NCBI GenBank assembly: GCA_973895155.1
Contig: OZ316894.1
Location: 14,808,599 to 14,872,598, forward strand
Reading direction: 5' to 3'
From: Marsupella aquatica
Taxonomy: Eukaryota; Plantae; Marchantiophyta
DNA: 64,000 nucleotides
The notes under the pieces were generated by a model that did no database searches, was not told the DNA's origin, and worked only from the letters and a program-made list of their open reading frames with translations. Positions 5,001 through 64,000 of this stretch are shown here, piece by piece; the stretch's first letter is position 1; each line of letters starts with the position of its first letter. Both the position numbers and the translations under genes were made by a program.

Positions 5001-5049
5001 GAAGAAACTGAAAATTTTAAATTTTTTACGGTGTTTAGACTGCAATTGT

Positions 5050-27535: not shown

Positions 27536-27547
27536 GGTCCCAATCCA

Positions 27548-38955: not shown

Positions 38956-41900
38956 CACTAGTAGAAACCGGGGTAATTTAGACCATACCTTATAGGACTA
39001 AGCCCACTAAGTCCTTCTTCCATACTTTAAATGACTCGCATCCATTGCCAAGGTTTTGTTAAAGACTATAAAAGACTTTGAGTGTTTTCATCTTTAGTTA
39101 AAGACTATGAAAAGTAACCTTGCTACTTTGTGAAGGGTGAACACTCTAGGACATCATGGGTTTTGTTCTTGGAATCACTCTAAAGGTCCACACAAAGACT
39201 AGTATAATACAAAGTCTTACAAGGGTTCATGATAAGAGTATACTTAAGAAGGACCGGCGACATGCTACTTTTTGGCCTAAGTGCTTAAGGACATGCCTTG
39301 TATATATCACCAACCTTAACTAACATTGCACCGTAAATATCCATGTAACGGGTACTTTTCATAACTTAGGGTACAACTGTACTGGAGGGCTTAGGGTGGT
39401 TTCTAACCGGAACCGGAACTAATGCATCACTATAACCCTAGCTAGGTACAACTCCCACACCATGATATATTCCGCATTGCCAACTAGTGTCATTTTAATA
39501 GGGTCATGGCCACTAATTGGCACAATGAACAGTCTAGCCCGTGATTGATTTTAGTCTAAATGATGGTGCCTTTTGATCCAAGATTAATTCCACAAGGGGG
39601 GGGAGGGTTAGGGTGGGGCACAACTAATTAAGTGGCCATGACTTTGTCACCAAAGGATTTTATTTAAAGTTATCCTTAACCCGTGTTAGTTTTGTGTCTT
39701 TTGTTGCCTAACACTCTAGCGCGGACGTACTTATTATGCTCAACGGGTCACCTCAACGGAAACGAGCTTACATGACTGCTTGCACTAAGTCTTGGGTTAG
39801 GGTGACTGTGCTTTGGTCATCATAGCAAATTAGGAATATTGCATTTTAGGACTGGATTTAATGTTGGGCAACCTTAATCCTGATTATGGCACAATAGAAT
39901 GCCACTATGTGCCGACCATGTATGTGCAAATATGACCATTCATTGCCTTCTTAGGGTAATTTGCCAGGCCATTTTTGCCTTGTTGGAGTCCACTAGTGTT
40001 TACAGAACATATGCTTCTGTGCTCAACGGCTCACCCCAACGGTTAGGGCTTTGTAAATTCCTTCCCCTAATTCTGTTTAAGGGTTTACGCTTAACTTTTG
40101 GGCCGGACTAAACTACATGGGCAAGGCGCGGGAGAATTCTTCGTGACTTAGTGGTCGAAACAAGGTGGTGGGGTCTTGGGTTGGGTGTTCGGGGTTTTGC
40201 CAAAGGGTTTTTCATTGACAATGAGCTTTCTCGATCAGTCCAAGCGTCATGCTGCTCTAAGTGTATACACTCTTGCCATCCCGAGCACCTCACGCGAGCT
40301 GTGAGCAGTTGCATCCTCCTGTTGTAAGTGCATTGATCTGCCAAGCGTTCAAATGCAAAGCTGCTAGCGTCTACTCCCTGTGCTGGTTGAATGTGTAGCG
40401 CTGTCTTGTGACGATTGAAGATTGCCCCTTACCTTTTACCGCCATCGCTGAATGCAGGATCGACCCGAATATAGCACCTGTGCAGAGGCATTGGGTGAAC
40501 ATAGTGAATGCCGTTTGTGTCTTGTGCAAGGTTGTGGGCCTAACGTTCGTGAGTCGTGAGCTGCAGACTACATGCGACTCCAAAGGAGGCATTGGGGAGG
40601 ACACGGTGAAGCAACAAGGAGCGGCGCGGGAGCTTAGAGTGGGCCAACGCTAGCTGAATCCAATCCAGGAGATGTTGCGCTAAGGTGAGACTCTGAGTTT
40701 AGGGTTGCTTCAGTGTCCAAGTAGGTTTTCTCTTTGCGTCGGCAGCTAGAAGGTAAGCTCGGGGGCTTTACAAAGGGTTAGTGTTGCGGACTTTCCCTCC
40801 TGGACGTTGCGTGTCTTCATTTGCAACTTGTTTGTGGACCTGTGATCCTGAGACTGTCAAAATTGTTGTGGCCGCACCGACAACTTGACGACGCATTTTG
40901 TGGATGCACCGTTAGTAATCGCGACTACAGCTCTCCAATGATTGCACTTACCATTTTTGACCACCTTGCATGATGTCCATCCGTGGGCTGGACCCCAGGG
41001 AGTAGATTTTGGTACATTTCAGTAGATTTTGTCTATGCCCCCGGTCCTCATTTTGTGCAATGTCCGCCTGGCACTTGGTTCTTGATCCCTACATTGTCGT
41101 CTGCCGCTCGGCTGCTTGCGGAAGGGATCAAACAGATTGGAGGTCACTGTGGACTGACATTCAGGCCTGGGTCAAGCAAGGAGGTTAGAGTTGAAGTCGC
41201 CTATGCTTGGCCTTCTCTATTTTCTCTGCTTGCCACTGCCTCTATTGTTGCTTACCATTTGCAGCTGGTGAAGCTGCATGCGGGTTGCATCTATTCTACG
41301 GGCGCGCTACGGGTGTTTTATGGATTGTGGACTTTATGTGGTGCGAGAATCGGTAACAACATGAACCGGACTTTTTTTACAGTCTTGGAATGTGCGTGAG
41401 CTGTGAAGGTTGCGCTTCAGAGCTGATATTCCTGTCGCCGCCTACTCCCATTGTTGTGTGTTCGTAACGTTGTGGATCGTAACGTTGGAACTCGGAGCTG
41501 AGCTGCGCACTGTCAACCATCAAGCGCTGTTGCGCGTTGTCAACCAAGAGGAGATGCCGCATCCCACATTGAGTTGAACATTCAGCTAGGGACCTGAGCT
41601 GCGCACTTTCAACCATCGAGCAACGACCAAGCTTGGCAGCGCTCTGGGATTTATCGGCCACATTGACAAAGCAGAAGACAGAGGTGAGTGTTCGTGCACC
41701 GTTAGAGTAACCGCGAGTACTCTATTACATGCCTTGTTGTTCTCTATTACATGCCTTGTTCTCCCGTCCACTGTTTCCTGCGATTTTCTTTCTTCCAGAA
41801 GATAATGGTGATTTCTTCTTCAATCAAACAAAACCCCACCCAACCACCACCCAAGAACGTGGGGTGTGCGCTACTTAATCCTCCTCAAACTGGCCCATTG

Positions 41901-43952: not shown

Positions 43953-44402
43953 ATGGTGAGGACCCGCAACGCTGAACATGTGCGGCTTGCACGCAAGGCA
44001 GAGATGTTGCGCCTTGAGTATGTCAGACTTGGGATCCTTCCAGCCCAGTCTGCATGGTACTTTGAGTACCCAGTTGTTGCTAGGAACAACTACAGCCAGC
44101 CTGTACCTGCTTCTCCACCCTTCCCAACATCCTTGGTATTTCTGTCTCTTGTACATGACCCGCCACAAATTAGGGCCCAAGGGTGTGTGCACAGTTGCCA
44201 ATATGACTGTCTTGCCTGTAGGGCTTCTGGCCTAGAGTTGGATGACCGTTCTCTTGGATGTCAGTTTTTTCACAGAGCACAATGTATTATCTGGAACCAC
44301 TCGCCATCCTGTAGTGTGCCTGGTGATGTCACTTGTCCTGCCCTCCCAGACCCCACCACCGGTCACTTTGGTGTCTACACATGTTTGGATCACACGCTCT
44401 AG
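43953..44402 (+). CDS. Unknown Cys/His-rich 149-aa protein, cargo copy A
   Basis: Intact ATG-stop ORF; clear homolog at 56708-57160 (GC.HSCQYDC.ACR, CI.WNH, CPALP). Confidence 0.75.
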   Translation: MVRTRNAEHVRLARKAEMLRLEYVRLGILPAQSAWYFEYPVVARNNYSQPVPASPPFPTSLVFLSLVHDPPQIRAQGCVHSCQYDCLACRASGLELDDRSLGCQFFHRAQCIIWNHSPSCSVPGDVTCPALPDPTTGHFGVYTCLDHTL

Positions 44403-45071: not shown

Positions 45072-45752
45072 ATGGCACGCCCTAAAATCCGAGCCAAGAA
45101 GCGAGGGACAGAGGTGAGCAACACAGGTGTAGTTGGGCCAGATGGTAGTAACTTCTCCGCAAGTCAGATTTTCCAGAAGGCAGCTCATTGTTGTGCCATT
45201 TGTGACGATGGTGGTGGCTTAGCCATATGTGAGGGCCCTTGCATGAGACATTTCCACCTCAACCCGGAGTCTGACCTTGCTGCAGAAAACAACTGTCCAG
45301 AGGTGGGCCTCCCGTCAGCACACTAGGGAGGCTGGATGTGCACTGATTGTTTGGAGAAGCAGGCTAAGTGTGCACAGTGTGGGAAGTTGGGGTCTTATGA
45401 GGGCTCTATTGATGCTCCACCACTTGTTAGGAAATGCCCTGACAGATATTGTGTGAGGTTCTTTTGTTTTTCATGTTTGCCCGATCTTGCCACAGCTTGC
45501 CCACTTCATAAGTGCAAGGCATGTGGTCAGCAGGATGAAGATTTTTGGGTGGACATAGTCCACTGTGTTAGGTGTCCCACCATGTGGCACTTTCATTGTT
45601 TGAAGGAGCGTCAAGCAGAAGGCTATGCTTGTGACAGACACATCTATGATCACTCTGCACATGGTGTTGATCGATGGATCTTCTATTGTCATCGCCATGC
45701 CATAGATCCTACTTTGCACACTCCCATGAGAGATCACATTTCTTGGCTTTGA
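45072..45752 (+). pseudogene. Stand-alone EDM2/NSD-type PHD finger cassette, copy A (one in-frame TAG at 45324)
   Basis: CAICDDGG.L..CEG.C.R.FH, CPLHKC..C, CVRCP..WH..CL and FYC..H.ID..L.TP.RDHI match the EDM2 PHD region as I recall it. Confidence 0.85.
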
Positions 45753-46350: not shown

Positions 46351-47202
46351 ATGGCCTCTAGGAAACGTACAAAGGTTGACCACCCACCTCTGTTGGCTGG
46401 AATCAAAGCCATTTTGATTCCTGGCCACTATGGGTTCACCCAAGTGAGTTGGCCAATCGTACAAAAACGATTCTCAGAGTTCCATGGGACTGAAGTCAAG
46501 GACATCACTCCACAAACTACACATGTTGTTGCGGGGACATGGCTGGATGTGATGAACAAGTGGTCATGGTCCTTCATTGATTCTGCCATTACCAACCAAG
46601 GTCTAAAAGTAGTTGAAGTCTCTTGGCTGACCGATTCTGTTAAACATAGGTGTGTACAGAGTACTGAGCAATATGAGTTGTGGGAGAGTGTCAAGGAGGC
46701 CACTGCAGAGGCTTTGGCTGAAAAGGAAGCCTATGAAGCAGCGGAAGAGAAACCCAACTTTGCTTCTGTCCAATATGGACCTGTTGTCAACATAGGACAC
46801 CATCCTATGCGTGCAGATGCTATATTGAATGAGCATGGCAAGGAGAGAAATACCATTATGAAGGGGTTCAGTGTGGTATTTGCAGAAGAAGGAATTGGGG
46901 AGACTAAGTGCAGACTGTACAAGTCTATAGTTGTTGAGCTAGGTGGAACAGTGGAGGAGAGTCTAATAGAAACCTCCACTCATGTTGTAGGTCTGTCATA
47001 CATGAAAATATGCAGAAAATTCTTTAAGACAATAGTGTGTGATTTTGTCATGAACAACAATCTTTGGGTGCTTTCCCCTGATTGGCTTCTGGAATTAGCA
47101 GCTAGAGGGAAGCGACAGAATGCTTGGGACTTTGATATTTTTGAGGCCTGGCCCTCCAAGATTCAGCGGAGATGTATGCTTAGCAAAGGTGGGAGAGAGT
47201 GA
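46351..47202 (+). CDS. Tandem BRCT-domain protein, 283 aa
   Basis: Two BRCT repeats: G.EV...TTHVV...VVEVSWLTDS and LGGTV...STHVV...VLSPDWLLE; intact ORF. Confidence 0.8.
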   Translation: MASRKRTKVDHPPLLAGIKAILIPGHYGFTQVSWPIVQKRFSEFHGTEVKDITPQTTHVVAGTWLDVMNKWSWSFIDSAITNQGLKVVEVSWLTDSVKHRCVQSTEQYELWESVKEATAEALAEKEAYEAAEEKPNFASVQYGPVVNIGHHPMRADAILNEHGKERNTIMKGFSVVFAEEGIGETKCRLYKSIVVELGGTVEESLIETSTHVVGLSYMKICRKFFKTIVCDFVMNNNLWVLSPDWLLELAARGKRQNAWDFDIFEAWPSKIQRRCMLSKGGRE

Positions 47203-47378
47203 GGAGTAGGAGTCCCTCATATTTTTGTATAAATCACAATTTTGTAATAAATATGATCCTTGAACTAACTCATCTTGTCATGGTTGGTCGCAGTTGAAGT
47301 GATTGTTGTTTCCTGCTGCGTGGGGTGTGACTGTGAATCTACTTGCTGGGCTCTGTTTGGCTGAAGACTTTGGTGGGT

Positions 47379-47912
47379 ATGCTGCCTCTTCCAGACCGTC
47401 AGGCCCTATGTAGGGTCCTCCTACGGGTTGCATCGTGCATGGCTACTGCTTGGGCTTACTTGTGTGGATTGGTAACCAGACAGAGTGTAGCTCCATCCGA
47501 GATAATGCCTGCAGACCTTGGATGTGTTGTGAATGCTGTGGTGAATGAGGATGCATAGTCAGAAGAGGACATTTACTTTTCAGCAGATGAGTTAGACAAG
47601 CACGATGCTGTAGGTGGTTCCTTGTTGCCTGATTTGGCAGATGATATAGTTCTTACACATGTCTGGCCGAGGGTTCTTGTGGTGTCTGGCGCACAAGATA
47701 TCTGCAAATATAGACTAATTAGTACCCAGTGGAGGGACTTGGTAGCAACATGTGCACCATGGAGGGCACTGCTGCCACTGCTTGTAGGCACGGATCGAAG
47801 ACCACCATGGCATGAGCAGGGTTTAGACCTTGATGACTTAATGTACATGCCTGAGTACCTCAGGGCTGAGTGGCATCGACAACAGGATTGGTATCCGTAT
47901 TTGATGTGGTAG
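47379..47912 (+). pseudogene. F-box-like protein
   Basis: LPDLADDIVL.HVW.R...RLISTQWRDLV F-box pattern; in-frame TAG at 47556. Confidence 0.55.
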
Positions 47913-48238
47913 TAAGATGAGGACATCTCACACCGGTCTCGCACTTGGCACCTGTGTCTATGACTATACATGATTGGACTCTGATATGGTCATGGATGTA
48001 CGTGCAGAGGCAGTACATGTGAGGACAGCGGAGGAGTTGACACCCTCAAACATTTAGGAATTTTGTCTCATTCACTTGAGAATAGGTACATGACTCAGGC
48101 ACCTATATTTTTTGTTTTTTTGTTTTTTTGGAACGTTACGTATTTTGGCAAGTACAGTCGGGGGTGAAATCCTTAACAGGAAGTGTATTTTTCACTTGCA
48201 TAATAAAATGACAGGGTGCTGAGTGCGTGTGTATAGTG

Positions 48239-49301
48239 ATGGCTCCAAGGTTGCCTCTTCACAACCCATTTAGGATTAGGCATCATGATTCTAAATTGTG
48301 GATGCGTGAACAAGCCCGGACCGCCCAAGGTAGGAGTAGGAGGATGAGATGCCCATGCACACAGTGCCAAGGATTCAAGTCGTTGAGTTTGAACACTGTG
48401 CACCTTCACCTGCTGCGGCATGAAAGGCACCCTCGGTGGAGGGTTTGGAATGTACCAGCAGAAGAAGACTCCTCTGATGAAGAGTGGAGAGCTGACTTTG
48501 TGGATTCTAATACAGCTAGGCGTAGAGACTACACGGTCTCAAATTGCACACTTCAACAACAAAACAGAGCTTCGTGGCCCACCACAGAGGGTCACCAGAG
48601 AGCAAGTCCTGAGGTGGGCAGCCAGGAAGGCTGATTGGGACAAGAGAAGTGCCACTGATGGAGAACCTGAGGATCCAGTGGTGAAACACGGTGTGAAAAG
48701 ACAGACCTTGATGGACTTGGAGTTGGAGTACTGGAGGGTAATGTACTTAGCCTCCAGCCCCTGTATGATTGCAATTTTAGATTGGAAGCAATGGTGGATT
48801 GATGTTGGTTACAATCCTCCTATGTGGTTAATTAGTGTTTCTGTTGTTGAATTCTTTGCTTTGTGGAGTGCAGGAATTCGAGCCCAGCAAACACAATGTA
48901 GACGTCATGCACATTGAGAAAAATATTTGTGAGAGCTTGCTGAAGTTCTTGTCGGGTGAGAAAGATACAGGAGCAGTTTGAGCTGATATGCAACAGAAGG
49001 GGATTCGCCCTCACCTTTGGTTGAAGCCCCATGCAAGCAATCCCAATGTACTTCTCAAGTTCCAAGCTCCCTATGTGTGCACACAGGATGAATGGAAGAC
49101 ATTCTTGTATAGATTGAGTTGTCTGAAAGTGCCCTCTGGCTATGCTGGTGCCTTCAAGAAGCATATTACAAAGAATAAACTTGGCAGTATGAAAACACAT
49201 GACTACCATGTGTTGATGCAGCACATTCTGCCCCTATGCCTCAGAGGTCTCATGCAGAAACCAGTCCGTAATGTCATTCTTTGACTGTGCAATGTATTTC
49301 G
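48239..49301 (+). pseudogene. CACTA (Tnp2/TnpD-like) transposase, internally deleted and truncated
   Basis: RCPC..C...HL..H transposase-associated domain, DVMHIEKNICESLL, LKVPSGYA, MKTHDYHVLMQHILP (DUF4218-like). Confidence 0.9.
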
Positions 49302-50332
49302 CCCACAAGAAGAAAACCTATGTTTTACTACTACAGGCCTTGCAACTACTTTGCCTAAACAACTCATACGTGGTGCCAACCACTGTTTTTTTAATGGGTT
49401 GTAATAATCTGCATTTTGTGACTCTAATTAGAACTATGTTACCTTAATCACTAATTACAACTCTTTTTTTTGCCACTAAAACTTAGATCACTTTAATTAG
49501 AGTTGTATATTATACAATTTTCAAATCACTACAATCCACCGTCCATTACACCGTCAATGTTTACAACTCTATTTTTAACTAAGATTTTACTACTGGCCAA
49601 AAGCACTACAAATACAAGTACCACCAATATTTGAATGGTAAAGGTGTTTTTTCAATCAACTCCCAATCAAGTGAATCTTTTCCAAGTGATCTTAATTACT
49701 TGAAATAATGTCATTTGTGAGCACACCTTTTGTTACTATAAATATCACCAATAGTGGAGTCATAAATGAATTTTGGCAAAATCACTTAAAATATTTTAGT
49801 GACAAGGAAATTCTTACAAACAACATAAGATTGAGTGAATTAATTGTCAATGTACAAAATCTCTTTAAGTAAAGTCATTATTATCACAAATTTTCTGACT
49901 AGAAATGCCACTAATATTAGAGTCCAATAAATATTATTTGATGCAACTACAAACCAAGTGCCACATCCTCTTTTGGTCCAAAATCACTCTAAAGAATGTT
50001 ATTCTCTTCGCACATTTTAGTGACTCCAAATGCCACTAAGAGTAGAGTGTCAATGGAGGGCCTTGCAAATGACTTGAAATGAAGTAGATCATTTTTCATT
50101 CTCAGAAATCACTATGAATAATGTCATTCTTTAAATATATTTTGCAACTACAAATGCCATCAACATTAGAGTGTCAGAACAGTTTTGACAAATGACTGAA
50201 AATTGAAAGGATTATTTTGTGATGTCCAAATCTCTCCCAATGATGTCATTAGCAACACACATTTTCAGCCACGATATGCATGCCACCAAAATTACAGCGA
50301 TAAATAAATTCTTTTTTACAAATTGTACCAAA

Positions 50333-53127
50333 ACCACTGCAGAACATGTAGTTTGAGGGTTTTGGGCACTTGTCACTTGAAATACCACCATGTTTTGAGT
50401 TGGGAAAGTTATGTGTTTGAACTTCCAATCAAGTGCATTGGTAAATACCAGCGCAACCACTTAACATAAGGTCCTTTCGGGCTCTCATCTTCTTGCAACT
50501 ACAAACTGCATCCATATTTGAGTGATACAACACACATTGGTGCGATCATTTGCCATGAACTAGTGCTAAAAGGAGTGAATTGTGTGGATGCATCAAATAA
50601 GCCTCATATTTGTAATTCTGTAGAGTCTTGGAGTGATTTGTGTGGAGTTCATGATGTTGCATCACTTGGGTGCCTCAAATATCTCCACCTTGGCAATTTA
50701 TGCATCACAATCTCATTGTCGTTGCTATAACTAGTTGGCACACGTGATGGGGCTGTCCCATGGGTTCACCATGGGGGAGCTAACACGGAGGAATTGTGGT
50801 GGCGGCGGGCCCAGCCCTCCTCCTTTAATCGTGACCCTGCGAGAATTGCGGCAAGGTGGATCCACTTCTCATTATCCATTGTAAGTCTGTCACTCCGGAA
50901 ACCACTCGAAACAATGTGCTTTAAAGCTCTCATTTCTAGCGACTAACATTGTCACTCAAGCTGGGGTGGTACATCACGCATCCTTCTAAACAACTTCTCA
51001 TGAAGTGGTAGTCCTAGGATGATTGGGGGGCAAACCACTACAAATGAGGTGGTTTTAGGGTTTAGGGCAAATGCAACTTAAAATACCACCTTTATTTGAG
51101 TTGAGAAATAAATTGGGTGCAAACACTTGCAATGAAGTGTATTTATATGTACACGCCCAATTGATTTGAAAAAAGGTCCTTTCAGGCCCTCGCCTTTTGG
51201 CGACTACAAATTGCACCCATATTTGAGTGATGCAGCACACTTTAGTGTGATCCCAAACCATGAACTAGTGCTAAGAGGAGTGAATTGTGTGGATGCATCA
51301 AATAAGCCCCATATTTGTAATTCCGTAGAGTCTTGGAGTGATTTGTGTGGAGTTCATGCTGTTGCATCACTTGGGTGCCTCAAATCTCTCCACCTTGGCA
51401 ATTTATGCGTCACAATCTCATTGTCGTTGTTATAACTAGTTGGCACACGTGATGGGGGTGTCCCATGGGTTCATCATGGGGGGGCTAACACAGAGGAATT
51501 TGTATGGCGGCGGCCCAACCCTCCTCCTTTAATTGTGGCCCTCCGAGAATGCCCGCAAGGTGGATCCACTTCTCATTATCCATTGTAAGTTTGTCACTCC
51601 CCAAATCACTAAAAACTATGTTCTTCAAAGCCCTCATTTCTAGCAACTAATACTATCACTCAAGCTGGGGTGGTACATCACGCATTCCTCCAAATAACTT
51701 CTCTTGAAGTGGTAGTCCAAGGGTGATTGTTGTTCCCCACTACAAATGAGGTGGTTTTAGGGTTTAGGGCAAATGCAACTTAAGATACCACCTTTATTTG
51801 AGTTGAGAAGTAAATTGGGTGCGAACACTTGCAATGAAGTGTATTTATATGTACACGCCCAATTGACTCGGAAAAATGTCCTTTGAGGCCCTCGCCTTTT
51901 GGCGACTACAAATTGCACCCATATTTGAGTGATGCAGCACACTTTAGTGTGATCCCAAACCATGAACTAGTGCTAAAAGGAGTGAATTGTGTGTCGCATC
52001 ACATAAGCCCCATATTTGTAATTCCGTAGAGTCTTGGAGTGATTTGTGTGGAGTTCATGCTGTTGCATCACTTGGGTGCCTCAAATCTCTCCACCTTGGC
52101 AATTTATGCGTCACAATCTCATTGTCGTTGTTATAACTAGTTGGCACACGTGATGGGGGTGTCCCATGGGTTCACCATGGGGGGGCTAACACAGAGGAAT
52201 TGTTATGGCGGCGGCCCAACCCTCCTCCTTTAATCGTGGCCCTCCGAGAATTGCCGCAAGGTGGATCCACTTCTCATTATCCATTGTAAGTTTGTCACTC
52301 CCCAAATCACTAAAAACTATGTTCTTCAAAGCCCTCATTTCTAGCAACTAATACTATCACTCAAGCTGGGGTGGTACATCACGCATTCCTCCAAATAACT
52401 TCTCTTGAAGCGGTAGTCCAAGGGTGATTGTTGTTCCCCACTACAAATGAGGTGGTTTTAGGGTTTAGGGCAAATGCAACTTAAGATACCACCTTTATTT
52501 GAGTTGAGAAGTAAATTGGGTGCGAACACTTGCAATGAAGTGTATTTATATGTACACGCCCAATTGACTCGGAAAAATGTCCTTTGAGGCCCTCGCCTTT
52601 TGGCGACTACAAATTGCACCCGTATTTGAGTGATGCAGCACACTTTAGTGTGATCCCAAACCATGAACTAGTGCTAAAAGGAGTGAATTGTGTGTCGCAT
52701 CACATAAGCCCCATATTTGTAATTCCGTAGAGTCTTGGAGTGATTTGTGTGGAGTTCATGATGTTCCATCACTTGTGTGCCTCAAATCTCTCCACCTTGG
52801 CATTTTGTCACAAACCTCATTGTCGTTGCTATAACTAGTTGGCACACGTGATGGGGGTGTCCCACGGCTTCACCATGGGGGGGCTAACATAGAGGAATTG
52901 TTATGGCGGCGGGCCCAACCCTCCTCCTTTAATTGTGGCCCTCCGAGAATTGTTGCAAGGTGAATCACTTCCCCGTCCACTTCTTATTATCCTTTGTAAG
53001 TTTGTCACTCCCGAAACCACTCAAAACAATGTGCTTCGAAGCCCTCATTTTTAGCGACTAACATTGTCACTCAGGCTGGGGTGGTACATCATGCATCCTT
53101 CTAAACAACTTCTCATGAAGTGGTGGT
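50333..53127. repeat. About 701-bp tandem repeat, 4 units
   Basis: Homologous landmarks at 51055, 51757, 52458; units carry TTTAGGG-like, CACGTG and CCATGG-palindrome motifs. Confidence 0.95.
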
Positions 53128-56100
53128 CGCTACTACCATCACCTAGTCAGTAGTGATAAATGACATAAATGTTGTAATTTACAAACAACTTACAATCAAG
53201 TAAGGGATGGAGAGCTTGTAAATCCCACTACAAGTGATGTAGTATCGGACTCTCACCAAAGTGCAGCAACTATGTCACCAACATTTGAGTGATACATTGC
53301 TTAAACCACTTGCCACCAGGTAGTGGGTTCGGAGGGGACTGGCAAAAGCACTTGGAATGTGGTGATTTTCCGAAGTGCGAGCCATTACATTGCCAAAGAA
53401 GTTTAGTGAATGGTGCCAAGGGTAATTAAAACATAGAGAAAATTAAAACAACATCCTGGCCGGAACATGGTTTAGGGTACATAGAAGCTTGGGGTTTCTA
53501 GACACTCAGCGTATCTCTCAATGCAAGGGAGTGTCATAGAAAATGTATTATTTTGTAGCACCACTAGCATATATTACTTCTAAAGCTTTGTATGATTTAC
53601 ACAATTTCAAGGAGTAAGGTATTAAAATTGGCAATAGACAAAAAGTGATTCACATAGGGTACTCTAGAAATGAAAATGTGGGTTTAATTAGGATAAATGG
53701 TTGGCATTAGGACCCGCATTAGGACTCACATGGATAATGTCATTTCTCACTTTAAAAAGCATTGCGAGAAATTAAATGTTTACTACCCAAGTAATTATAC
53801 CACCTAGGTAACATTGTTGGTGGCATATTGGAAGTTCTTCATTTTTTGCACCACTTTGAAAGAGCCAGGTAGTCACCACTTAGCACTTATTTGTAGGGGT
53901 TAGACAAGTGGCAACGTTGGGGTGAAACTACATTAAAAAAAACCTGGGGGGTGAGTGGGTTGGCTTTATAACATAAGGGATGGATGGGATGGCCTGGGGG
54001 CTTGGGGTGTAAATTCAGATGGCTAAGATCACCCTCATCCGATGGCTGAGATCACCCTAGGCGCTTCCATGTCAGAGTAAGTCTAGAGTACGGGTTCGCG
54101 CCAAACGGCTATTTGCACCCGCCTTACGTTGGATGAAGAGTTGCAGCGTTCCACTTTTCCGACAAAGTATCGAGGTGAAACGCTGAATGTTGTGGTTACT
54201 CTCTAGCACAAAGGGTTTAGGAGAAGAGAGCAAAGGGGTTTAGCAAGGACCTTGCACTGCTTTTTTTGCCTCCAGAGCTGTGGAGTTTAGGGCTGCGATC
54301 GCACCTCATGGATTGAGTTTGTGGAGTGCGAAGCTGCGGGAGTGAATGTGGGCACGGTGCACTGGAGTTAGTGCTGCAATCAAGGCTCGTGGCTTTTTTC
54401 TAAAGTGGAGTGCAGAGCTGCGCGGGGGAGCTACGGGAGTGCGAAGCTACGGGAGCACAGAGTTGTGGGAGTGCGCGAGTGCGGAGTGTGGGAGTGGCAA
54501 GAGCTGCAGAGCTACAGAGCCACAAACTGTGTTTGAGTGCAGAGCGATTGAGTGCGGAGCTGTGATTCAGCTGTAGCCTGTCGGAGTTCAAACAGAGTGC
54601 ATTTCCCCACTGGAAACGTCGAGGCTAATCGGGCATTGTCAGGTTTTGGTGCCAGAGTTGTGAAGGAGCAGGGTTTTCGGTACGTTGGACATTGGCGCCG
54701 CGTGGTGGGCACTGACTCTCCAAACTCCTTGTCAGCGGTATTGCGGAGCTGGGCAATCTGCAAGAAGGGAGACAGGCAAGCTGCAATAGTGGACGTCGAC
54801 CTACAATGCAGGTTGGAGTTTCTAATTAGTCACCATTGCTGGGATTTGAGCTCTCATTTGCTTTGGGCTATTTGTCAGAGTCGTAAATGGCTGAGCATCA
54901 TTCCACCAAGCTGATTTCCGTTGAGCTCATTTGTGGATAGTGGACCTATTGGTTCACATTGGAGTTGCAAAGGAGCTGGCCAGAGCAGCTCGGGCCGTCA
55001 CAGCTTGTCGGCAGCATAGGTCACAGCTCGGGGGAGGGTTGCCGGTCGGACCTTGGCGCTGCGTGGTGGACACTGGACCTGCCAAACTCCTTGTTGGCAG
55101 TTGTCAGCTTTCATCTGGCTCAACATACTCGCCACTCATTTGTTTGTCAGCTTCTTTCACTTCCCGGCCATGCCCTTGATTTCTTTCAGCTTTCCCAAAC
55201 AGAGCTTACTTGCTCTCTGCTCTCTGCTACAAGTCCGGGTCTGAAATCAGCTGTTTGTCTTGTTTGTTTTGTGCGAGGGCTTCCCAAATGTATTGTTGAG
55301 GCTGTATTGCAGATTAGACCATTACATTCTCGATCCAATAGACCCCTTTGAAGCAATCAATCTGAAGCAATCAATCTAAAACCTTCACAGTTTCTCTAGG
55401 AATTCTTGTCGTCTGCTCATCCTATGTGCTCATTCTCTCTCTTCCTCTCTCTGTTTTGTGCATTGCCTTGTTTGGCAGGGCGCCTATTGTGCTCTGCCTC
55501 GGATGTACCTGTACTGTCGTGGATGTGCTTGCAATATAGCAATAAATAACCTGCCCATGCTGATGATGCGCCTCCACAGACCCTTCCCTCCTTTTGTCTC
55601 TTGGAACACTATCGAATCATTGCTGGTCTGTAAGGCTTACTTCAGCATACTGGTCACATATTGCTTGCTGTTTGCTATAGATGAGTACATAATGGAAGAA
55701 TGAAATACTCTTTAGTCTTGTCATTTAATAGTCTTGTCCTCTCCACGTCCCGGGTTAACTGTTTAAATAGAGACTAATGGTTCACAGTTGAAATAGAGAC
55801 AAACTTGTTTTGTTGTAGAGAAGAAGCTCTTTACTTGCTATACTAGTAGCAGAGTTCTGTCTGTCTTGATCAATGCTACCTACTATCTGGCTTGCTGTCC
55901 GATTCAATACTCTGGTTGCGCTGACATACGTGTATCCGACTTTGTGGTAGCTCAAAGCCAGTGACGTTCACACTCTTGACCTTTGTCTGTTTTTGCTGGG
56001 GCAAGATTGCCGTAAAGTTGTTATTACTGGCTGAAAGGTTTACGTCTCCAAATTTACATTGAGGTTCTACATGTAACAAGTAGGCTACTGCCCCCCTTGG

Positions 56101-56707
56101 TCTTTTGTGGACAATGCTATTTTATTGGCGCTATCCTTGTCATTTGTGCTTTTTCTTGAGGGTTCTCTCATTGCCGCCAATTGGAACACCTCAAGACTTT
56201 TCTTACCAGCGAGGGCGTGAATCATGCACCATGCCAAGCCCCTGAAGTGAGATCTCACTTCATTGTCTCGTATTTCCGTGGATGTTTGTAAATTTTCATT
56301 TTTACTTTCTTGACGATCCTGTCATTTTGGTCAGGAGTGGTCACTCTGTTTCAAGGTCTGTTTTGAGTTTCTTCATCTTGTCTCGTGCTGTTGCTTCTCT
56401 TTCTATGAATCTTGGATCAATGCTACCTGCTCTCTAGGTCGGCCTCCTATTCTGTACTCTGGTATGGTTAATGGAGTCTTGTTTGTGTGCGCGGTAAATA
56501 GAATTACCAATTGTTGGCATTGGGAAAGTCTTGAGCCTGTCTAAGCTTGTCCTTTAAAACGTGAAGGGATTCATCCCTGTATATAAACTGAAATTCAGGG
56601 TCAGTCATGAAATCTCCAGTTTTTTAACCATGGTCTTATAGTTTCAGGAGCGAGTGGACCTGCTGTGGACGTGAGCAAAGCAGCACAGGACGTGATCAAG
56701 AATAGCT

Positions 56708-57160
56708 ATGGTGAGGACTCGCAGCGCTCATTCTCAGAGTCTTGCAGGCACCGCAGAGAGATTGCGTCTAGAGTTTGTCAGACGTGGCACATGGCCAGCC
56801 CACTCTACATGGTATTTTCGTTATCCAGTTGTAGTGCAGAATGACTACAGCCGGCCTCCACCTGTGGCATTACCCTTTCCCACATCCGTGGTGTATGTGT
56901 CACTTATTGGCAAAGTGCCACACGTCAAGGCCATCCTAGCGCATGGATGTATCCATTCTTGCCAGTATGACTGCGTTGCTTGTAGGGTGGTGAACCCAAC
57001 AACCCTGGTCGGTGCTGACAAAGCCGCTAAACAAAGTAGGAGGATATGCATCCTTTGGAACCACTTTGCATTGTTGAATGGTGTGGATAGTGATCTCGGG
57101 TGTCCTGCCCTGCCAAACCCCGCTATTGGGGGTTTCTCGGACACATCATGTTTGATTTGA
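56708..57160 (+). CDS. Unknown Cys/His-rich 150-aa protein, cargo copy B
   Basis: Intact ORF homologous to 43953-44402. Confidence 0.75.
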   Translation: MVRTRSAHSQSLAGTAERLRLEFVRRGTWPAHSTWYFRYPVVVQNDYSRPPPVALPFPTSVVYVSLIGKVPHVKAILAHGCIHSCQYDCVACRVVNPTTLVGADKAAKQSRRICILWNHFALLNGVDSDLGCPALPNPAIGGFSDTSCLI

Positions 57161-57918
57161 AGTTAGTTTACACCTGCAGGAATTCTAACACAGTACGCAC
57201 GTACCAAGATGCAATGAGATAAGGCATATTTTTGGATGAAATAGTAACTTAAACACTGAGAAATAACTTATGCTTTGACTTTTTCTATATATTCGTACAA
57301 TTTTGTATTGAGGGTTTGAACACCTCAGTGGAATTAAAGTTTTGAAGTACATTGCAAAACCCCTATCCACTAAGCACAACATTTTAATCTAAGATGTCAC
57401 CAGTCCACTCAACATCTCTGTTCAATGACTCTGTTCCAGAAGGCCCACAATCTATTGCTAAATGAAAGTTGAATCCAATAGTTAAAGTCTCTGTCAATGA
57501 CTCCCACTCCCCCCTGGCAGATATGCCTTATGGCTCTAGATCGGGTACAGTGAATGAAGAAAGTTGAAGAGTGTCCATGTAATGTTTGTCCATGCATAGT
57601 CCTTGCCAACTCAAACCAGTGCTCTGTGTAGTGGCTCCATTTAAATGATATTTTGTGTCACATTTGTGCTGTTGCAGATTATGAATCCTTGTTTTTACAT
57701 CTTGTGACGTGAGAGGGGATTGAGATCTACATCTGAAACCGATCAAGGCAATCTCCAAATTTCATTGCCTTCCTCTTGGTTGAGTACAATTGGTGAGTCC
57801 TCTACATTCTGGCCCCACATTGGATTGCAATATGCAAGTGGTAAGTACGTGTTTTATGACAGCCAATTTAACAGTTTAATAACTCTTCAAGTTTTCTTGT
57901 TCATGTCCAGTGGTCATA

Positions 57919-58571
57919 ATGGCTAGGACCAAGCATAAAGCCAGAAAGAATGATACTCGAACGAAAAAGGAGGAAGATGTGTTGATGATTGAATTGTGGT
58001 CAGACGTTGAGAAACGTCAGTGTAGTCCCCAGCTTTGTGGCATTTGTGACTGGCATGGAGATCTGGCCATGTGTGATGGGGCTTGCCATCGGCACTTCCA
58101 CCATGTTTCCAAAGTTGGTGAGGTTGTTGGCAGGTGCCCTGCTGTATTTATTGCACCAGGCAAGGATGATGATCCTTGGTATTGTCCAGAGTGTAAGGAT
58201 AAGACATACAGGTGTTTTCAGTGTGGCATTGTCTCTACTACTGCCAGGCAGTGCCCCCATCCATATTGTGTTCGTTTTTATTGTCATGGATGCTTGCCAC
58301 TTGATGTGGAGTCTTGCCCCATCCATACATGTGTTGCATGCCAGCAGGACCATGGTGACCCTCATCTGCCAGAGGCCGTGAGTGTTTGAGATATCCCAAA
58401 ACTTGGCATCGTACTTGCCTAGCCGAGAGTAAGCATCAAGGTTTTGCATCGGACAGAGTGCCCTGGCATCATACTGCACATGACCAGGGACGTTGGATGA
58501 TTTACTGTCCTGACCATCCTATTGACCCTGCTCTAGGCACAGCGGCTCATGATCACATCTCCTGGCTTTGA
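57919..58571 (+). pseudogene. EDM2-type PHD cassette copy B with an H3-tail-like N-terminus; frameshift near 58385
   Basis: MARTKHKARK start; CGICD..GDL..CDG.C.RHFH, CPIHTC..C, IYC.DH.ID..L.T...DHISWL. Confidence 0.8.
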
Positions 58572-59141
58572 TTCACCTGGTCCATTTTGGTTCAAATACA
58601 TCATTACTATTGTAGACATCGATACAGTTAGTTAATCAATGGAACAATGATGTTTTGTCATAATCACACATTTTGTGAACTGTGTGAATGGTTAGCACAA
58701 GCATGGAGACAGTGCTCCCGGTTTAATTGACTAAGGCTTCCTAAAACATCTAAAGTACTCAAACTTTATTTATTTGACATCTAAAGGACATTGTTTGATA
58801 TGCACTTTAGCATGCACGATCTGTTACGTCTCCAGTTCCGCAATTCTGAGCTTGGGGCGAAATTTCACTTCGAGTTGGAAGGGAAATTGGCTGCGGTTTA
58901 AGCTCAGACTTTGCCAGAGCATTGGAAACAGCGAGAATGTATCACTGGCAAAGTTAGAGCTGCAATCGACATCGTTTGGTATGCACTTTAGCATGCACGA
59001 TCTGCTACGTGTCCAGTTTTGGGATTCTGAGCTTGGGGCGAAATTTCACTTCGAGTTGGAAGGGCAATCGGCTGCGGTTTGAGCTCAGATTTTGGCAGAG
59101 TGTTGCAAACAGCGAGAGTGTATCACTGGCAAAGCTTTGTG

Positions 59142-59912
59142 ATGGCAACGGAGGAGATTGCCCATCTCAAGGCTTTGCTTGAGAAAATCTTAGTTGTGGC
59201 TGAAAACTCCGCAATTGAGATTACCACACTCAGCAAGGAGGTGACGGAGCTAAAGAATGAGAATGTCAAGCAAAAGAGGTTGATTAGTGATCTTCGATCT
59301 CAAACTCAGGAGAATGGTAAGCAACTCTCATTGCTTGCATCGTGTTTTGGAGACATGGAGAAGAGTATGTGCCCAGAGAAATCAGTGATACATGAGACTG
59401 TAGGGGAGATTGAGGAGAAGCTCAAAACCTTTGCATAGGCTGCAAAACAATCACATATGGAATTTGTCCAAGCCAAGGAGGAGGAGAGGAGAGCACTAGA
59501 GGAAGAACACAAGAACCAGCATGCAAGAGTCAGCAACTGCAAAATATCAGGCCTTGTTGAGGAGGAGAAGGAAGACACCAAGAAGGTAGCAATTTCATTC
59601 TTCCAATCTCAGATGAAAGTGCATGACCCTATCATTTTGCAAGCATATAGGATTGGGCAAAAGAAGGGGGACCTTCCACGTCCAATCTTGGTGAAGTTTG
59701 CAGCTGAATCCGAGAAAGCTAGAGTGATGGCTAACAGGAGCATGCTTAAAGGGCTAAGGATTTGGTTGGATGATGATCTGACTCCCACACAAGTCCAAGC
59801 AAGGAAAATTGAGCTTGAGAAGGTGAGGGTAGCCAAAGACCAAGGATTGGTAGCCTACTTGCGCAATGGACAAGCTGTTGTTACCAATAAGAAGAGAGTT
59901 GTTTCTAAATGA
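59142..59912 (+). pseudogene. LINE ORF1 with one CAG>TAG stop at 59436
   Basis: Same protein as 27548-28318 with the stop at a different codon. Confidence 0.85.
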
Positions 59913-59924
59913 TGGATTGGGACC

Positions 59925-62900
59925 TTGAGAGTCATGGCATGGAATGTTTCAGGACTTTCCATAGAAACAGCAATTGGAGGGGAACCTTTGTTTGAGAATT
60001 TTGACATCTTGCTTTTCACGGAGACTTGGGAATATGAGGGAAATGCTCTACCTAGCATTAAAGGCTTTACTTGCATACAATCCATCTTCAATGAGAAGAA
60101 GACCACACGGGGAAGAGGGTTTGGAGGCATTGCTGTCTACACCAAGAATCAACTTCAACACATCACCTCTATTGAACATGAAGATCCCAGCAAGCAGTTC
60201 ATGGTGGTGAGACTTCATACCAAAGGTACTCCATCATTTCTGATTGTCACCTACTTTGCTCCCCTTAATATGAATGTCTATAAGATGGGAATTGCTGATG
60301 CACATTATCCATTTCATAGGTTAATCCAAGTCATTCATGATATATCACCACTAGGGGAGACATGGATAGTGGGGGACTTTAATGCCAGGGTATCTAATGA
60401 ACAATTTACTGAAAGTGAGGACTTAGGAACTTTACCTTGGTCATCATGTAGTGAAGAGATACCTTGGGTGAGAGAGGCTCTTGACACCAGAACAAATGAC
60501 ATGACACGTCACTTTTTGCATTTGGGAGCTTCTTGTAATCTAAGAATATTGAATGGGCTTGAGAGATTTCCCCAATCATCTGGTTACACTTTTAGATCTA
60601 AACAAGGATGTAGTACCATTGATTACCTTCTTGCCTCACCTACCTCTGCCACTAGAGTGGTTGACTTTCAAATACTTGATCAACAACCAGAGTCTTCACA
60701 CTTGCCTTTGTTGTTCCATCTTGACCTGACCACAATCCCAAACAAAGTGCATAGAAAGCCAGTACCCAAACCTCTGTTTGTAGACCCTGATAGAGAAGTC
60801 ATCTTCAAAGCCAACTTTGAACATCTTCTCCATACCCTGGATGATCAGATTGAGCTCTCAGAAGTCATAGCACAAGCAGCAGCCTCTACTTTCTCCACCA
60901 AACCCCCTAGAAAGCAAAACATGAAGGCTTGGTTTGACGAGGATTGTGCTAGAGCAAGGATGCAAGCAAGATCACATTCAGGGGAAAAGAGACTTTTGGC
61001 ATTCACTATGTACAAGAACTTCATCAAACACAAGAAGAGGTGCTTCTTGAAAAGTCATCAACAATCACTATGTGAGGAGTTCATCAAACATCCAAAACGT
61101 TTTTGGGAGAGAATGCAATCAGGCAAGACTACTCCCCCCTTGGATCAAATCAATATTGAATGGGCTTGAGAGATTTCCCCAATCATCTGGTTACACTTTT
61201 AGATCTAAACAAGGATGTAGTACCATTGATTACCTTCTTGCCTCACCTACCTCTGCCACTAGAGTGGTTGATTTTCAAATACTTGATCAACAACCAGAGT
61301 CTTCACACTTGCCTTTGTTGTTCCATCTTGACCTGACCACAATCCCAAACAAAGTGCATAGAAAGCCAGTACCCAAACCTCTGTTTGTAGACCCTGATAG
61401 AGAAGTCATCTTCAAAGCCAACTTTGAACATCTTCTCCATACCCTGGATGATCAGATTGAGCTCTCAGAAGTCATAGTACAAGCAGCAGCCTCTACTTTC
61501 TCCACCAAACCCCCTAGAAAGCAAAACATGAAGGCTTGGTTTGACGAGGATTGTGCTAGAGCAAGGATGCAAGCAAGATCACATTCAGGGGAAAAGAGAC
61601 TTTTGGCATTCACTATGTACAAGAACTTCATCAAACACAAGAAGAGGTGCTTCTTGAAGAGTCATCAACAATCACTATGTGAGGAGTTCATCAAACATCC
61701 AAAACGTTTTTGGGAGAGAATGCAATCAGGCAAGACTACTCCCCCCTTGGATCACCAGGACCTGGTAACCTATGTCACATCCTTGTATTTCTTTCCAGAT
61801 GCTAGTGGCATGCCTTTGCCCCTTGGGGACACCATTCAGTTTACAGAGAGGGAGGTGAAGGTGCATCTTTCCCACATGCAACATGGGAAAGCTAAAGATC
61901 TGTTGGGCCTGAACTTGGAGCTTCTTTTGTGGGGAGGACCCTCTTTATTAACAAACTTGGTGCATGAGCTGAATCAAGCAATGGCTTTAGGTTTACCTAA
62001 AGCTTGGATGACCAGAAGAGTGGTGCCTATCTTCAAGGCAGGCAACAAGGACGATGTGCACAACTACAGAACCATCATGGTAGGCAATACTTTTGCTAAA
62101 GTTTTGGGAGGACTACTTGAAGCCAGATTAAGCTCTTGGTTGGAGAGTGAGATGAAAAGGGCACCTTCACAAGCAGGTTTTAGGAGAGAATTCAGCACTA
62201 TGGATCACATTCTCTGCTTGAGGGTGTTGTGTGAAAAGGCCAAATCTCCACATAAACCATTATTTTGCTTGTTTGTGGACTTCTCCAAGGCCTTTGACAA
62301 AGTTTCCCGATCCAAGCTTTGGGATAGGATGGTGGAGTTGGAAGTGCCTGAAGAGCTCAGGTTGGCTGTTTCTAAATTGTACCAAGAAGTGCGCATCAAA
62401 CTTTCAAAGGAAACCTCTGAAGAAATCTGGAGCACTCTTGGGGTGATCCAAGGTTGTCCTCTCTCACCAACTCTATTTGGCATCTTCATTGATCAGCTAC
62501 ACAACATTTTGGAGGAGCATGGTGGAGTTGGCACTCAATTGGGTAGGTTTGTCCTCCAACTTCTTATATTTGCAGATGATGTGGTCCTACTTGCTCATGC
62601 TCAAGAAGCTTTGCAAAGACATCTCAATGCCTTGGAGGAGTTTTGTCAAGCAACAGGGATGGTAGTCAACCTCAAGAAGACCAAGTGTTTGGGCATTGGC
62701 ACACGACAAAATCCAGAGCTCTACTTCCAAGGGAATCTGGTGGAATTTGTGAGGACCTACAAATACCTTGGGGTGGAGTTCTCTCAAAACTTGAGTTGGG
62801 CCTCATGTGTAAAATCTAGGGCTGCCAATGGGTACAGAGCTTTTTATGCATTCATGAACAAATGCAAAAGAGCTGGTCTACACACTTGGAGGTTAAGGAA

Positions 62901-63736
62901 ACATCTCTTTGGAGCTTTGGTGAAACCAGTCATTCTTTATGGAGCACCAATTTGGGGAGCAGGTGTGTCTAAATCTGGGTGGCAACAGATTGAGGGGCTG
63001 CAAAAGCTATTTCTTGAGATGGAGCTTGGGATCAAGTCACAAACCCCATATACACTTACACTTGCAGAGGCAGGCTTGTTTCCTTTGGAGGTGGAGGCAC
63101 TCTTCCACACACTCAAATACATCATGCGTGTAAGAGAGTTGGAGGAAAACAGATTTCCTTTTCATGCCTTGCGCTCATCTTCAGCTAAAGGGTGGTATGC
63201 AGATGTGTGCAGGTGGGCCCATGCTTGGGGATTTTCCTGAACATGAATGGCCAACACACCCAACCAAGCTAAGAGCAAAACTTGAGCAAAAGGCTTTGCA
63301 CAAACTTTGGCATGAACCTAGCCCACGGCAGCAATACTACATGAGAGATGTGAACCCCATGAAGAAATATCGAGAACAAGAATACTTATCTAGCACTATC
63401 TCAGTACAACTTAGACAACTTATTGCTCAGTATAGACTAAGCTCACACCACCTTGAAGTAGAACAAGGGAGATGGAAGGATATTGACAGGAAAAAGAGGG
63501 TTTGTCAACTATGTGATAGCTCTAGTATAGAGAATGAATATCATGTATTCATTGCTTGCAAGTTTTATGAGGGGGTTAGGATGGCATCTCAAATCTTGGT
63601 GAAAGATTTGTATGCATTGTTTGGTCTGCCCCCTCAACAACTTGGAAGATATATCTTTGCGGTGGATAGGGAAAGGAGAATAGGTTTGGAAAATCTTTCA
63701 GGGCTCTCTAGGTCCATAGTTTCTTTGAGGACATAG
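59925..63736 (+). pseudogene. LINE ORF2 (APE endonuclease, reverse transcriptase, C-terminal CCHC), disrupted by the duplication and a 1-bp G insertion near 63230
   Basis: NYRTI, QAGFR, FVDFSKAFD, GVIQGCPLSP, FADD, YKYLG; RLSSHHLEVEQGRW...CQLC...ENEYH...C typical of RTEX-like elements. Confidence 0.92.
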
Positions 63737-64000
63737 TTGTCCTCTTCTGAGCAATCTCTTTTGGTTGCTCTTTTCTTTGATTGCATTGTACTTTACTTTT
63801 TGTGGCAGCTCCTTTGACTTTCATGGTCCCGGAGCTTATAATACATTACCATTACCATTACCATTACCAGTATAGACTAAGCTCACACCACCTTGAAGTA
63901 GAACAAGGGAGATGGAAGGATATTGACAGGAAAAAGAGGGTTTGTCAACTATGTGATAGCTCTAGTATAGAGAATGAATATCATGTATTCATTGCTTGCA

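What the first reader, a model, noticed from the sequence alone, without database searches (positions are those of the whole stretch)
57919..57960. Histone H3 tail mimic (MARTKHKARK) fused to a TE-borne PHD reader
After Met removal, ARTKHKARK matches H3 ARTKQTARK at 7 of 9 positions with K4 and K9 in register, and also resembles plant CENH3 starts (MARTKH). It sits on a protein whose only domain is a predicted H3-tail-binding PHD cassette. Copy A starts MARPKIRAKK, keeping A1, R2, K4, A7 and K9. Inference: a decoy substrate for H3K9/K4 writers or readers, or an auto-inhibitory switch.
Basis: partly seen in the sequence, partly recalled or inferred. Interest (0 to 1): 0.85.

Follow-up and report, generated by a model that had tools for sequence, protein, structure and literature searches.

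The report
Transposon PHD protein with histone-like tail
A family of plant jumping-gene passengers consists of a borrowed chromatin-reader zinc-finger module behind a conserved nine-residue start that lines up with the histone H3 tail, which likely lets the element engage the host's chromatin machinery, although this particular copy is broken and no binding has been tested.

Summary
In detail: 57919-57948 encodes MARTKHKARK, 7 of 9 identical to the H3 tail, in front of an EDM2/NSD-type PHD cassette and nothing else. The window's copy is frameshifted after 58380, but contigs of four of five runs laid have the frame open, and three runs show the same tail codons. The gene is cargo of CACTA transposons: copy A lies between a CACTA end and a transposase; copy B likely belongs to a second element nested in it. 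Among 31 relatives (one clade, apart from host EDM2), 28 keep a nine-residue motif: small residue 1, R2, K4 (26), A7 (18), K9 (15), then no conservation. So the H3 register is a family trait. But T3 (4 of 28) and R8 (3 of 28) are not: the 7/9 match is a recurring variant of ARPKxKAxK, and 12 of 28 have residues before it. A K9-writer decoy and self-inhibition are poorly supported: the family lost the acidic patch before PHD1 (0 of 31 against 119 of 119 others). A classical import signal is absent from most. Best reading: an H3(1-4)-type mimic acting on host readers; untested, no expression data.

The parts
57919..57948 (+). H3-tail-like N-terminal motif of copy B, MARTKHKARK (family consensus [AST]R-x-K-x-K-[AS]-x-[KR])
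   Evidence: same codons in contigs of runs X1, X2, X6
57919..58571 (+). Copy B gene, intronless EDM2/NSD-type PHD1-PHD2-PHD3 cassette, about 217 codons when whole; frameshifted after 58380 in the window, early stop 58387-58389
   Evidence: frame open in runs X1, X2, X3, X5
57881..57910 (+). Pyrimidine tract and AG acceptor 8 nt before the ATG; likely end of a 5'UTR intron (candidate donors 57793 and 57841)
   Evidence: no transcript evidence
56708..57160 (+). Cargo ORF1 of element B, 150 aa, no known family, starts MVRTR; homologous to ORF1 of element A
   Evidence: (69% DNA identity over 281 bp)
49304..49317 (+). Likely left end of element B (CACAAGAAGAAAAC, a CACTA end with one change), inserted into element A's transposase
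   Evidence: (contigs of four runs leave the window sequence at 49303 and go on in transposase; one starts at 49304)
50331..53128 (+). Four head-to-tail units of about 700 bp, three beginning CACTAC and one CACTGC; subterminal repeats of element B (inferred)
58787..63869 (+). LINE (endonuclease, reverse transcriptase, CATTAC tail) inserted about 215 bp behind copy B; hides the rest of element B
   Evidence: other copies go on with different sequence at 58775
38956..38967 (+). Likely left end of element A (CACTAGTAGAAA)
   Evidence: no matching right end in the window
43953..44402 (+). Cargo ORF1 of element A, starts MVRTR
45072..45752 (+). Copy A of the PHD gene, starts MARPKIRAKK; TAG at 45324 in the window, CAG in the four runs laid; AG acceptor 2 nt before the ATG
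   Evidence: (PHD-1st_NSD 27.5 bits, cut-off 27)
46351..47202 (+). Tandem BRCT cargo ORF of element A
   Evidence: BRCT E 8.7e-13
47559..47912 (+). F-box-like cargo ORF of element A (weak)
   Evidence: E 0.07, below cut-off
48239..49303 (+). CACTA transposase remnant of element A, deleted internally at about 48531 and cut at 49303
   Evidence: Transpos_assoc E 2.2e-5, 25 bits, under the 27.7 cut-off; C-terminal motifs recognised from memory

Best explanation
This is a broken copy of a CACTA-transposon cargo gene whose small protein joins an EDM2-type PHD cassette to a conserved nine-residue start in register with histone H3, and that start likely works as an H3-tail mimic that host chromatin readers or H3K4 enzymes would bind, which would help the element alter silencing at its own copies. 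Shown: the gene, its cargo position in element A, the family, the motif and its register, the open frames in other samples. Inferred: that element B is a second CACTA; that the cassette was taken from a host EDM2-like gene without its other domains; that the first Met is removed to free Ala1 (in the 16 of 28 members where the motif follows Met directly); that A1/R2/K4 is the part that is read, in trans rather than by the protein's own PHD1; and that the PHD cassette supplies targeting to heterochromatin or to EDM2's partners. The extra H3 matches of this copy (T3, R8) are a recurring variant, not the family's rule.
For: Family of 31 distinct short proteins forms one clade apart from host EDM2-like proteins, 100/100 (28 family rows in that tree). 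Motif in 28 of 31: position 1 A/S/T 28 (A 20), R2 28, K4 26, A7 18 (A/S 24), K9 15 (K/R 21). A7 and K9 were not used for anchoring and exceed shuffles (0 of 10,000 and 9 of 10,000; relatedness not corrected). Conservation stops after position 9 (column identity 0.06-0.09 at 10-14). Mean match to H3 is 4.2 of 9 in register, at most 1.14 in six other registers, 1.2 expected from composition. 14 of 28 fit the published M-Z-R-x-K definition, which only 48 of about 21,000 human proteins meet and which is enriched in chromatin proteins (PMC8166343, section 12 read). T3 appears on three separate branches, so H3-like variants are tolerated or favoured. The tail is unstructured in two AlphaFold2 models (pLDDT 59 and 64), as H3-type tails are. 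Classical NLS pattern in only 4 of 28. The partner domain descends from a reader that is pulled down by H3K9-methylated peptides (PMC6208443, passage).
Against: R2 and K4 were the anchor of my count, so their figures are partly by construction (the 16 Met-adjacent cases and alignment A5, 15 chosen rows are the independent checks). The commonest residue 3 is Pro (12 of 28) and position 6 is Lys in 17 of 28 where H3 has Thr (0 of 28). In 12 of 28 the motif is not at the very start (7 have two extra residues, 5 have more), which would block the free Ala1 amine that PHD readers need (PMC3241642, passages). A Marchantia protein (P0081) has a similar RPKMKASK stretch internally. No transcript confirms the start codon or expression. 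No binding was modelled or measured. Both window copies are broken.
Confidence: 0.45

Rival explanations
1. The motif is a basic arm with another job: a non-classical import signal or a DNA/nucleosome-binding strand, left over from the basic linker of the host gene; the H3 register is partly coincidence.
For: Alternating R2-K4-K6 pattern with K6 in 17 of 28; 4-7 basic residues in the first 12 of nearly all members; 12 of 28 not at the very start; an internal look-alike in Marchantia P0081 and GRPK-type basic stretches in the linkers of liverwort relatives. From memory, the H2A tail also has an A-R-x-K-x-K run that fits about as well; not tested.
Against: Classical monopartite pattern in only 4 of 28 and not in this copy; an import signal would not need a small residue at 1, Ala/Ser at 7, or a place within three residues of the start in 23 of 28.
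Confidence: 0.3
2. The tail folds back on the protein's own PHD cassette as a pseudo-ligand and is released by a modification or by real H3.
For: Tail and cassette have stayed together across the clade at a spacing of 28-48 residues; PHD1 keeps the L-x-x-C-[DE]-G strand (30 of 31); the profile matches AIRE PHD1, an H3K4me0 reader (E 4.5e-4).
Against: The acidic cluster before Cys1 that holds unmodified K4 (PMC3241642) is present in 0 of 31 family members against 119 of 119 other relatives where PHD1 could be located (the seven-residue window was chosen after seeing the sequences, and many members have a Glu two places further out).
Confidence: 0.12
3. The tail is a decoy substrate for H3K9 methyltransferases of the KYP/SUVH type.
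For: This copy has A7-R8-K9 exactly; K9 is Lys in 15 of 28; the host gene works in the H3K9me2 pathway (PMC7529245, passages).
Against: R8 in 3 of 28, Ser at 10 in 0 and Thr in 3 of 28; this copy has Asn at 10. That K9 writers want Arg before the lysine is recalled, not checked here (one search found no passage).
Confidence: 0.06
4. The first codons were captured from an H3 or CENH3 gene.
Against: Similarity ends at residue 10; the nearest relatives of this copy start ARPK, ARYK and SRFK; Pro3 occurs in most sub-clades; T3 members are not one clade (p-AU 3e-5); Pro and Thr codons differ by one base.
Confidence: 0.04

Closest known systems
H3 N-terminal mimicry proteins (M-Z-R-x-K; VRK1, BCL11B, PCLAF and others; PMC8166343)
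   Same: M-A-R-x-K at the start in this copy and 14 of 28 family members; unstructured basic tail; chromatin context.
   Different: Those are human host proteins; here the tail is transposon-encoded, extends the match to A7 and K9, and sits on a reader module. Half of the family misses the strict definition. No binding data.
EDM2 (Arabidopsis) and the NSD1/2/3 PHD1-3 cassette
   Same: Same atypical PHD repeat from first finger to the DHIxW/F end; profile hits NSD2/NSD3 at E 1e-13 to 3e-12; EDM2-like proteins fill the representative search.
   Different: About 220 aa and intronless, without EDM2's N-terminal, acidic and methyltransferase-like regions; separate long-branched clade; acidic patch before PHD1 replaced by Q-x-SPH/AAH; carried by a transposon.
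VANC anti-silencing proteins of VANDAL (Mutator-type) transposons (PMC5735166, abstract read)
   Same: Accessory protein carried by a plant DNA transposon, in an element with tandem repeats in its non-coding DNA.
   Different: No sequence likeness found (no such Pfam family hit); VANC binds DNA motifs, this protein has a histone-reader fold and a histone-like tail; CACTA, not Mutator; anti-silencing here is only inferred.
H3K9-type histone mimics in G9a and SETDB1 (search listings and a reference title only)
   Same: ARK in this copy.
   Different: Internal motifs in host enzymes; the family does not keep the RK-S/T context.

Membership tests
H3 N-terminal mimicry proteins (H3TM) | M-[AGSCTPV]-R-x-K at the N-terminus | tested here: met
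   This copy M-A-R-T-K; 14 of 28 anchored members; definition from PMC8166343 section 12
H3 N-terminal mimicry proteins (H3TM) | The Met is the true initiator and is removed | tested here: inconclusive
   In-frame stops upstream in unspliced DNA; the two best donors (57793, 57841) add no in-frame Met, three weaker candidates of six would; no RNA run listed
H3 N-terminal mimicry proteins (H3TM) | Disordered tail | tested here: met
   pLDDT 59 and 64 over the first ten residues, no strand or helix; prediction only
H3 N-terminal mimicry proteins (H3TM) | Binds H3 readers or is modified at K4 | not testable with these tools
   needs peptide assays
EDM2/NSD-type PHD cassette | PHD-1st_NSD, PHD_NSD and PHDvar_NSD repeat | tested here: met
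   Copy A 27.5 and 27.0 bits, P0001 28.3 bits (cut-off 27); copy B alone 17.8 bits, under the cut-off; profile to NSD2 E 1e-13; fold hits NSD PHD tandems E 7e-4
EDM2 orthologue | Long protein with N-terminal, acidic and methyltransferase-like (ELP) regions | tested here: not met
   Whole members are 213-245 aa; search among 533-2000 aa gave two distant hits only (397-532 aa covered only); separate clade
Canonical H3K4me0-reading PHD | Acidic cluster before the first Cys | tested here: not met
   0 of 31 against 119 of 119; feature from PMC3241642
CACTA (En/Spm) element cargo | CACTA-type end upstream | tested here: met
   38956 CACTAGTAGAAA for A; 49304 CACAAGAAGAAAAC for B, one change, at a junction seen in four runs
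CACTA (En/Spm) element cargo | CACTA transposase in the same unit | tested here: inconclusive
   Present as a remnant for A; not visible for B, where a LINE and the window's end follow
CACTA (En/Spm) element cargo | Paired inverted ends and 3-bp target duplication | tested here: inconclusive
   No right end in the window; no genome held
H3K9-type methyltransferase mimic | R-K-S/T around the target lysine (recalled) | tested here: not met
   R8 3 of 28; S10 0, T10 3 of 28; this copy R-K-N
Classical monopartite NLS | K-[KR]-x-[KR] in the first 30 residues (pattern recalled) | tested here: not met
   4 of 28, not this copy
H3 or CENH3 gene fragment | Similarity beyond the first ten residues, histone fold | tested here: not met
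VANC-like anti-silencing factor | Lowers silencing marks on its own element in trans | not testable with these tools
   needs expression in the host

The most novel reading that the evidence does not exclude
Plant CACTA transposons took the PHD cassette of the host's own heterochromatin reader EDM2 and keep in front of it a fake histone H3 tail: a transposon-encoded histone mimic, like those of viruses, that brings H3K4 readers or writers to silenced copies or soaks up host readers, with a second cargo gene (MVRTR start) and a tandem BRCT gene as parts of the same anti-silencing kit.
Probability: 0.3. Interest if true: 0.87.

Novelty: new variant of a known kind. Interest (0 to 1): 0.64.

Why it matters
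How transposons resist silencing is known in detail mainly for VANC. A multi-copy CACTA family that carries a stripped host reader with a conserved H3-register tail would be a second route, acting on histone marks instead of DNA motifs, and would extend histone mimicry from viruses and host enzymes to plant transposons. The family gives natural variants (ARTK, ARPK, two-residue extensions, internal FTSRxK) that make the test cheap: a peptide panel against plant readers.

Tried and rejected
No genome is held, so copies could not be counted or right ends found. No RNA holder was listed; contigs show no joint across the candidate intron; neither bears on expression. Contig depth is not a copy number; it is used only to show one plateau over element A. 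The complex prediction (tail against cassette) was not available, so there is no verdict on binding. The two single-chain AlphaFold2 models did not dock the tail; that is no evidence either way. Foldseek with the truncated copy B gave no match at E 0.001. The metagenome scan gave 9 loci of which one (L001, with an in-frame stop) is a family member, too short to show context; the other 8 were not studied. ORF1 has no Pfam or Atlas match. Inverted-repeat searches found no paired ends. Capture from H3/CENH3 and a sequencing artefact were rejected. AT-hook origin rejected as a present function: residue 3 is not fixed and the R-G-R core is missing. The organism was not identified; the best-scoring named relatives are liverwort proteins, but the tree does not place the family's root. 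PMC3890799 (EDM2 PHD binding) was not held. Searches of earlier findings by place and sequence were empty.

Full report
Observation. The ATG at 57919 opens MARTKHKARK followed by a cysteine-rich region. Seven of nine residues after Met equal the H3 motif quoted in the finding. An AG lies at 57909-57910 behind a pyrimidine tract. A second copy at 45072 starts MARPKIRAKK. Both copies are broken in the window: B by a missing base after 58380, with the end of the cassette in another frame to 58571, A by a TAG at 45324. In public contigs these breaks are absent: of five runs laid, X1, X2, X3 and X5 carry the extra base at 58380 (X6 shows no row there), and all four runs read CAG at 45324. Contigs of X1, X2 and X6 cover the tail codons of B with no listed difference (records 4, 13, 29). 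So the tail is not an assembly error, and open-frame copies exist.

The domain. Pfam gives NSD-type PHD fingers (copy A and relative P0001 reach the cut-off, truncated B does not). A family profile hits NSD2 and NSD3 at E 1e-13 to 3e-12, and the representative search (374 proteins at E 0.001, best 150 listed) returns the short family first and then plant EDM2-like proteins, some named so. An intact relative folds at pTM 0.80 with hits to PZP and NSD PHD tandems. EDM2 has two and a half atypical PHD repeats plus other domains and binds H3K9me2 at transposons (PMC7529245, passages; PMC6208443, passage; PMC3632883, passages). The family has only the PHD repeat. One feature differs sharply: an acidic residue within seven places before the first Cys is found in 0 of 31 family members and in 119 of 119 other relatives where the finger could be located (134 examined). 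That cluster holds unmodified K4 in canonical readers (PMC3241642, passages). I chose the window after seeing the sequences, and many members have a Glu two places further out, so the result lowers but does not exclude H3K4 reading.

Transposon context. Copy A lies in the order CACTA end (38956), ORF1, PHD gene, tandem BRCT ORF, weak F-box ORF, transposase remnant. Contig depth in run X1 forms one plateau of about 1,400-7,200 over 42,984-49,623 against 100-230 over 52,944-58,255 (depth is no copy number). Contigs of four runs leave the window's sequence at 49303 and go on in transposase, and one contig starts at 49304, where CACAAGAAGAAAAC begins. Behind it come four 700-bp tandem units, a homologue of ORF1, and copy B, in the same order as in A. 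I read this as a second CACTA element nested in the first; a LINE at 58787 and the window's end hide its right part, so B's transposase and target duplication are not shown.

The family. Searches gave 31 distinct members after removing three 90% cluster mates; four fragments or unclear rows (P0031, P0085, P0144, P0159) were left out. A tree on the PHD part alone puts 28 of them (three too short) in one clade, 100/100, on a long stem apart from 25 host proteins. In 28 of 31 an N-terminal motif could be anchored (three look truncated; P0016 was anchored by eye). Counts against H3: A1 20 (A/S/T 28), R2 28, T3 4 (Pro 12), K4 26, Q5 4, T6 0 (Lys 17), A7 18 (A/S 24), R8 3, K9 15 (K/R 21). R2 and K4 were the anchor, so their counts are partly circular; independent of that, the motif follows a Met directly in 16 of 28 and two residues later in 7, and is further in for 5. 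A7 and K9 exceed within-peptide shuffles (0 and 9 of 10,000), with relatedness not corrected. In 21 fuller members, column identity is 0.62, 1.0, 0.81, 0.45 and 0.40 at positions 1, 2, 4, 7, 9, against 0.38 for non-Cys/His PHD columns and 0.06-0.09 at positions 10-14. The mean match to H3 is 4.2 of 9 in register and at most 1.14 when slid by one to three places. So a nine-residue motif is under selection, and five of its six conserved positions agree with H3; the sixth (K6) does not.

What that does to the finding. The family trait is [AST]R-x-K-x-K-[AS]-x-[KR]. The 7/9 match is reached by two members (B and P0009, ARTKQKAYK). Thr3 needs three changes on the tree and a clade of the four Thr3 members is rejected (p-AU 3e-5); given the family profile a member reaches 7/9 with p about 0.008. 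The likeness to CENH3 is therefore convergent. The K9-writer idea fails on R8 and position 10. The plain-NLS idea fails as a classical signal (4 of 28) but survives as a non-classical basic arm. The strict H3-mimic rule M-Z-R-x-K (48 of about 21,000 human proteins, enriched in chromatin factors; PMC8166343, abstract and sections 12 and 17 read) is met by 14 of 28; that paper shows in vitro binding only.

Start codon. Unspliced DNA has in-frame stops upstream of both ATGs. Of six candidate donors for B, the two with the best consensus (57793, 57841) add no in-frame Met and three weaker ones would; for A one of five would. Relatives called with N-terminal extensions show the same acceptor-like residues before MAR (P0005, P0020), which fits a conserved 5'UTR intron. 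No transcript was available.

Mechanism. Shown: cargo position, fold, motif, register. Inferred: Met removal frees Ala1; host proteins that read A1-R2-K4 bind the tail; the PHD cassette targets the protein to heterochromatin or to EDM2 partners; the outcome favours the element. I give this 0.45, a basic import or DNA-binding arm 0.30, self-inhibition 0.12, K9 decoy 0.06, histone gene capture 0.04.

What is known. Eight literature searches (listings only unless cited above) showed no report of a transposon-encoded H3-tail mimic on an EDM2-type PHD protein; a text search of the Arabidopsis atlas of transposon products found no PHD or EDM2 mention in its main text (PMC13547354; supplements not read and may bear on this). 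Subscription papers are not covered. VANC (PMC5735166, abstract) is the functional analogue, not a relative.

Verdict. Real, conserved at family level, transposon-borne, a new variant of known themes (histone mimicry, captured chromatin readers). The most striking letters of this copy overstate the family's likeness to H3, and function is untested. Interest 0.64.

Noticed in passing
window 43953-44402 and 56708-57160: The cargo ORF1 upstream of each PHD gene starts MVRTR in both elements, itself close to the M-Z-R-x-K rule (recalled likeness to the PCLAF/PAF15 start); Cys/His-rich, no Pfam or Atlas match.
   Followed up: partly
P0026, P0029, P0030, P0041, P0048, P0054, P0122, P0123, P0155: Host EDM2-like proteins of liverworts, Selaginella and green algae start MAR[TVA]; 13 of 138 non-family hits start MAR. 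The host gene may already have had an A1-R2 start.
   Followed up: no
P0039, P0045, P0047: Short EDM2-like proteins (P0039 named from the grass Eleusine) start MARMK or MARKK, fitting M-Z-R-x-K on a separate branch: possibly a second origin of the same layout.
   Followed up: no
P0081: A 280-aa Marchantia polymorpha PHD protein has an internal RPKMKASK stretch much like the family motif, but groups with host genes.
   Followed up: partly
window 57832-57921: If the 70-nt intron 57841-57910 is spliced, an upstream ATG at 57832 gives a five-codon ORF whose TAA overlaps the main ATG (TAATG).
   Followed up: no
window 46351-47912: Element A also carries a tandem BRCT ORF and an F-box-like ORF, both short captured interaction modules.
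   Followed up: partly
window 26450-28327 and 59133-61010: Two copies of the same LINE, 99.4% identical over 1878 bp, in opposite orientation; the copy at 59-64 kb has an internal 603-bp duplication (60545-61147 / 61152-61754) and CATTAC tails.
   Followed up: no
window 16408-19442: Three adjacent + strand ORFs (296, 442, 236 aa) with Cys clusters and DFSENY / SDGAASQFK motifs that look like a DNA transposase (recalled); no Pfam match.
   Followed up: no
window 31384-32877: 497-aa GC-rich ORF with little CpG loss (o/e 0.79), no Pfam match; looks like a mobile-element accessory protein.
   Followed up: no
window 45088: A loose end in run X3 gives a variant of copy A's tail that would read MARPKIQAKK, again keeping A7 and K9.
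   Followed up: no
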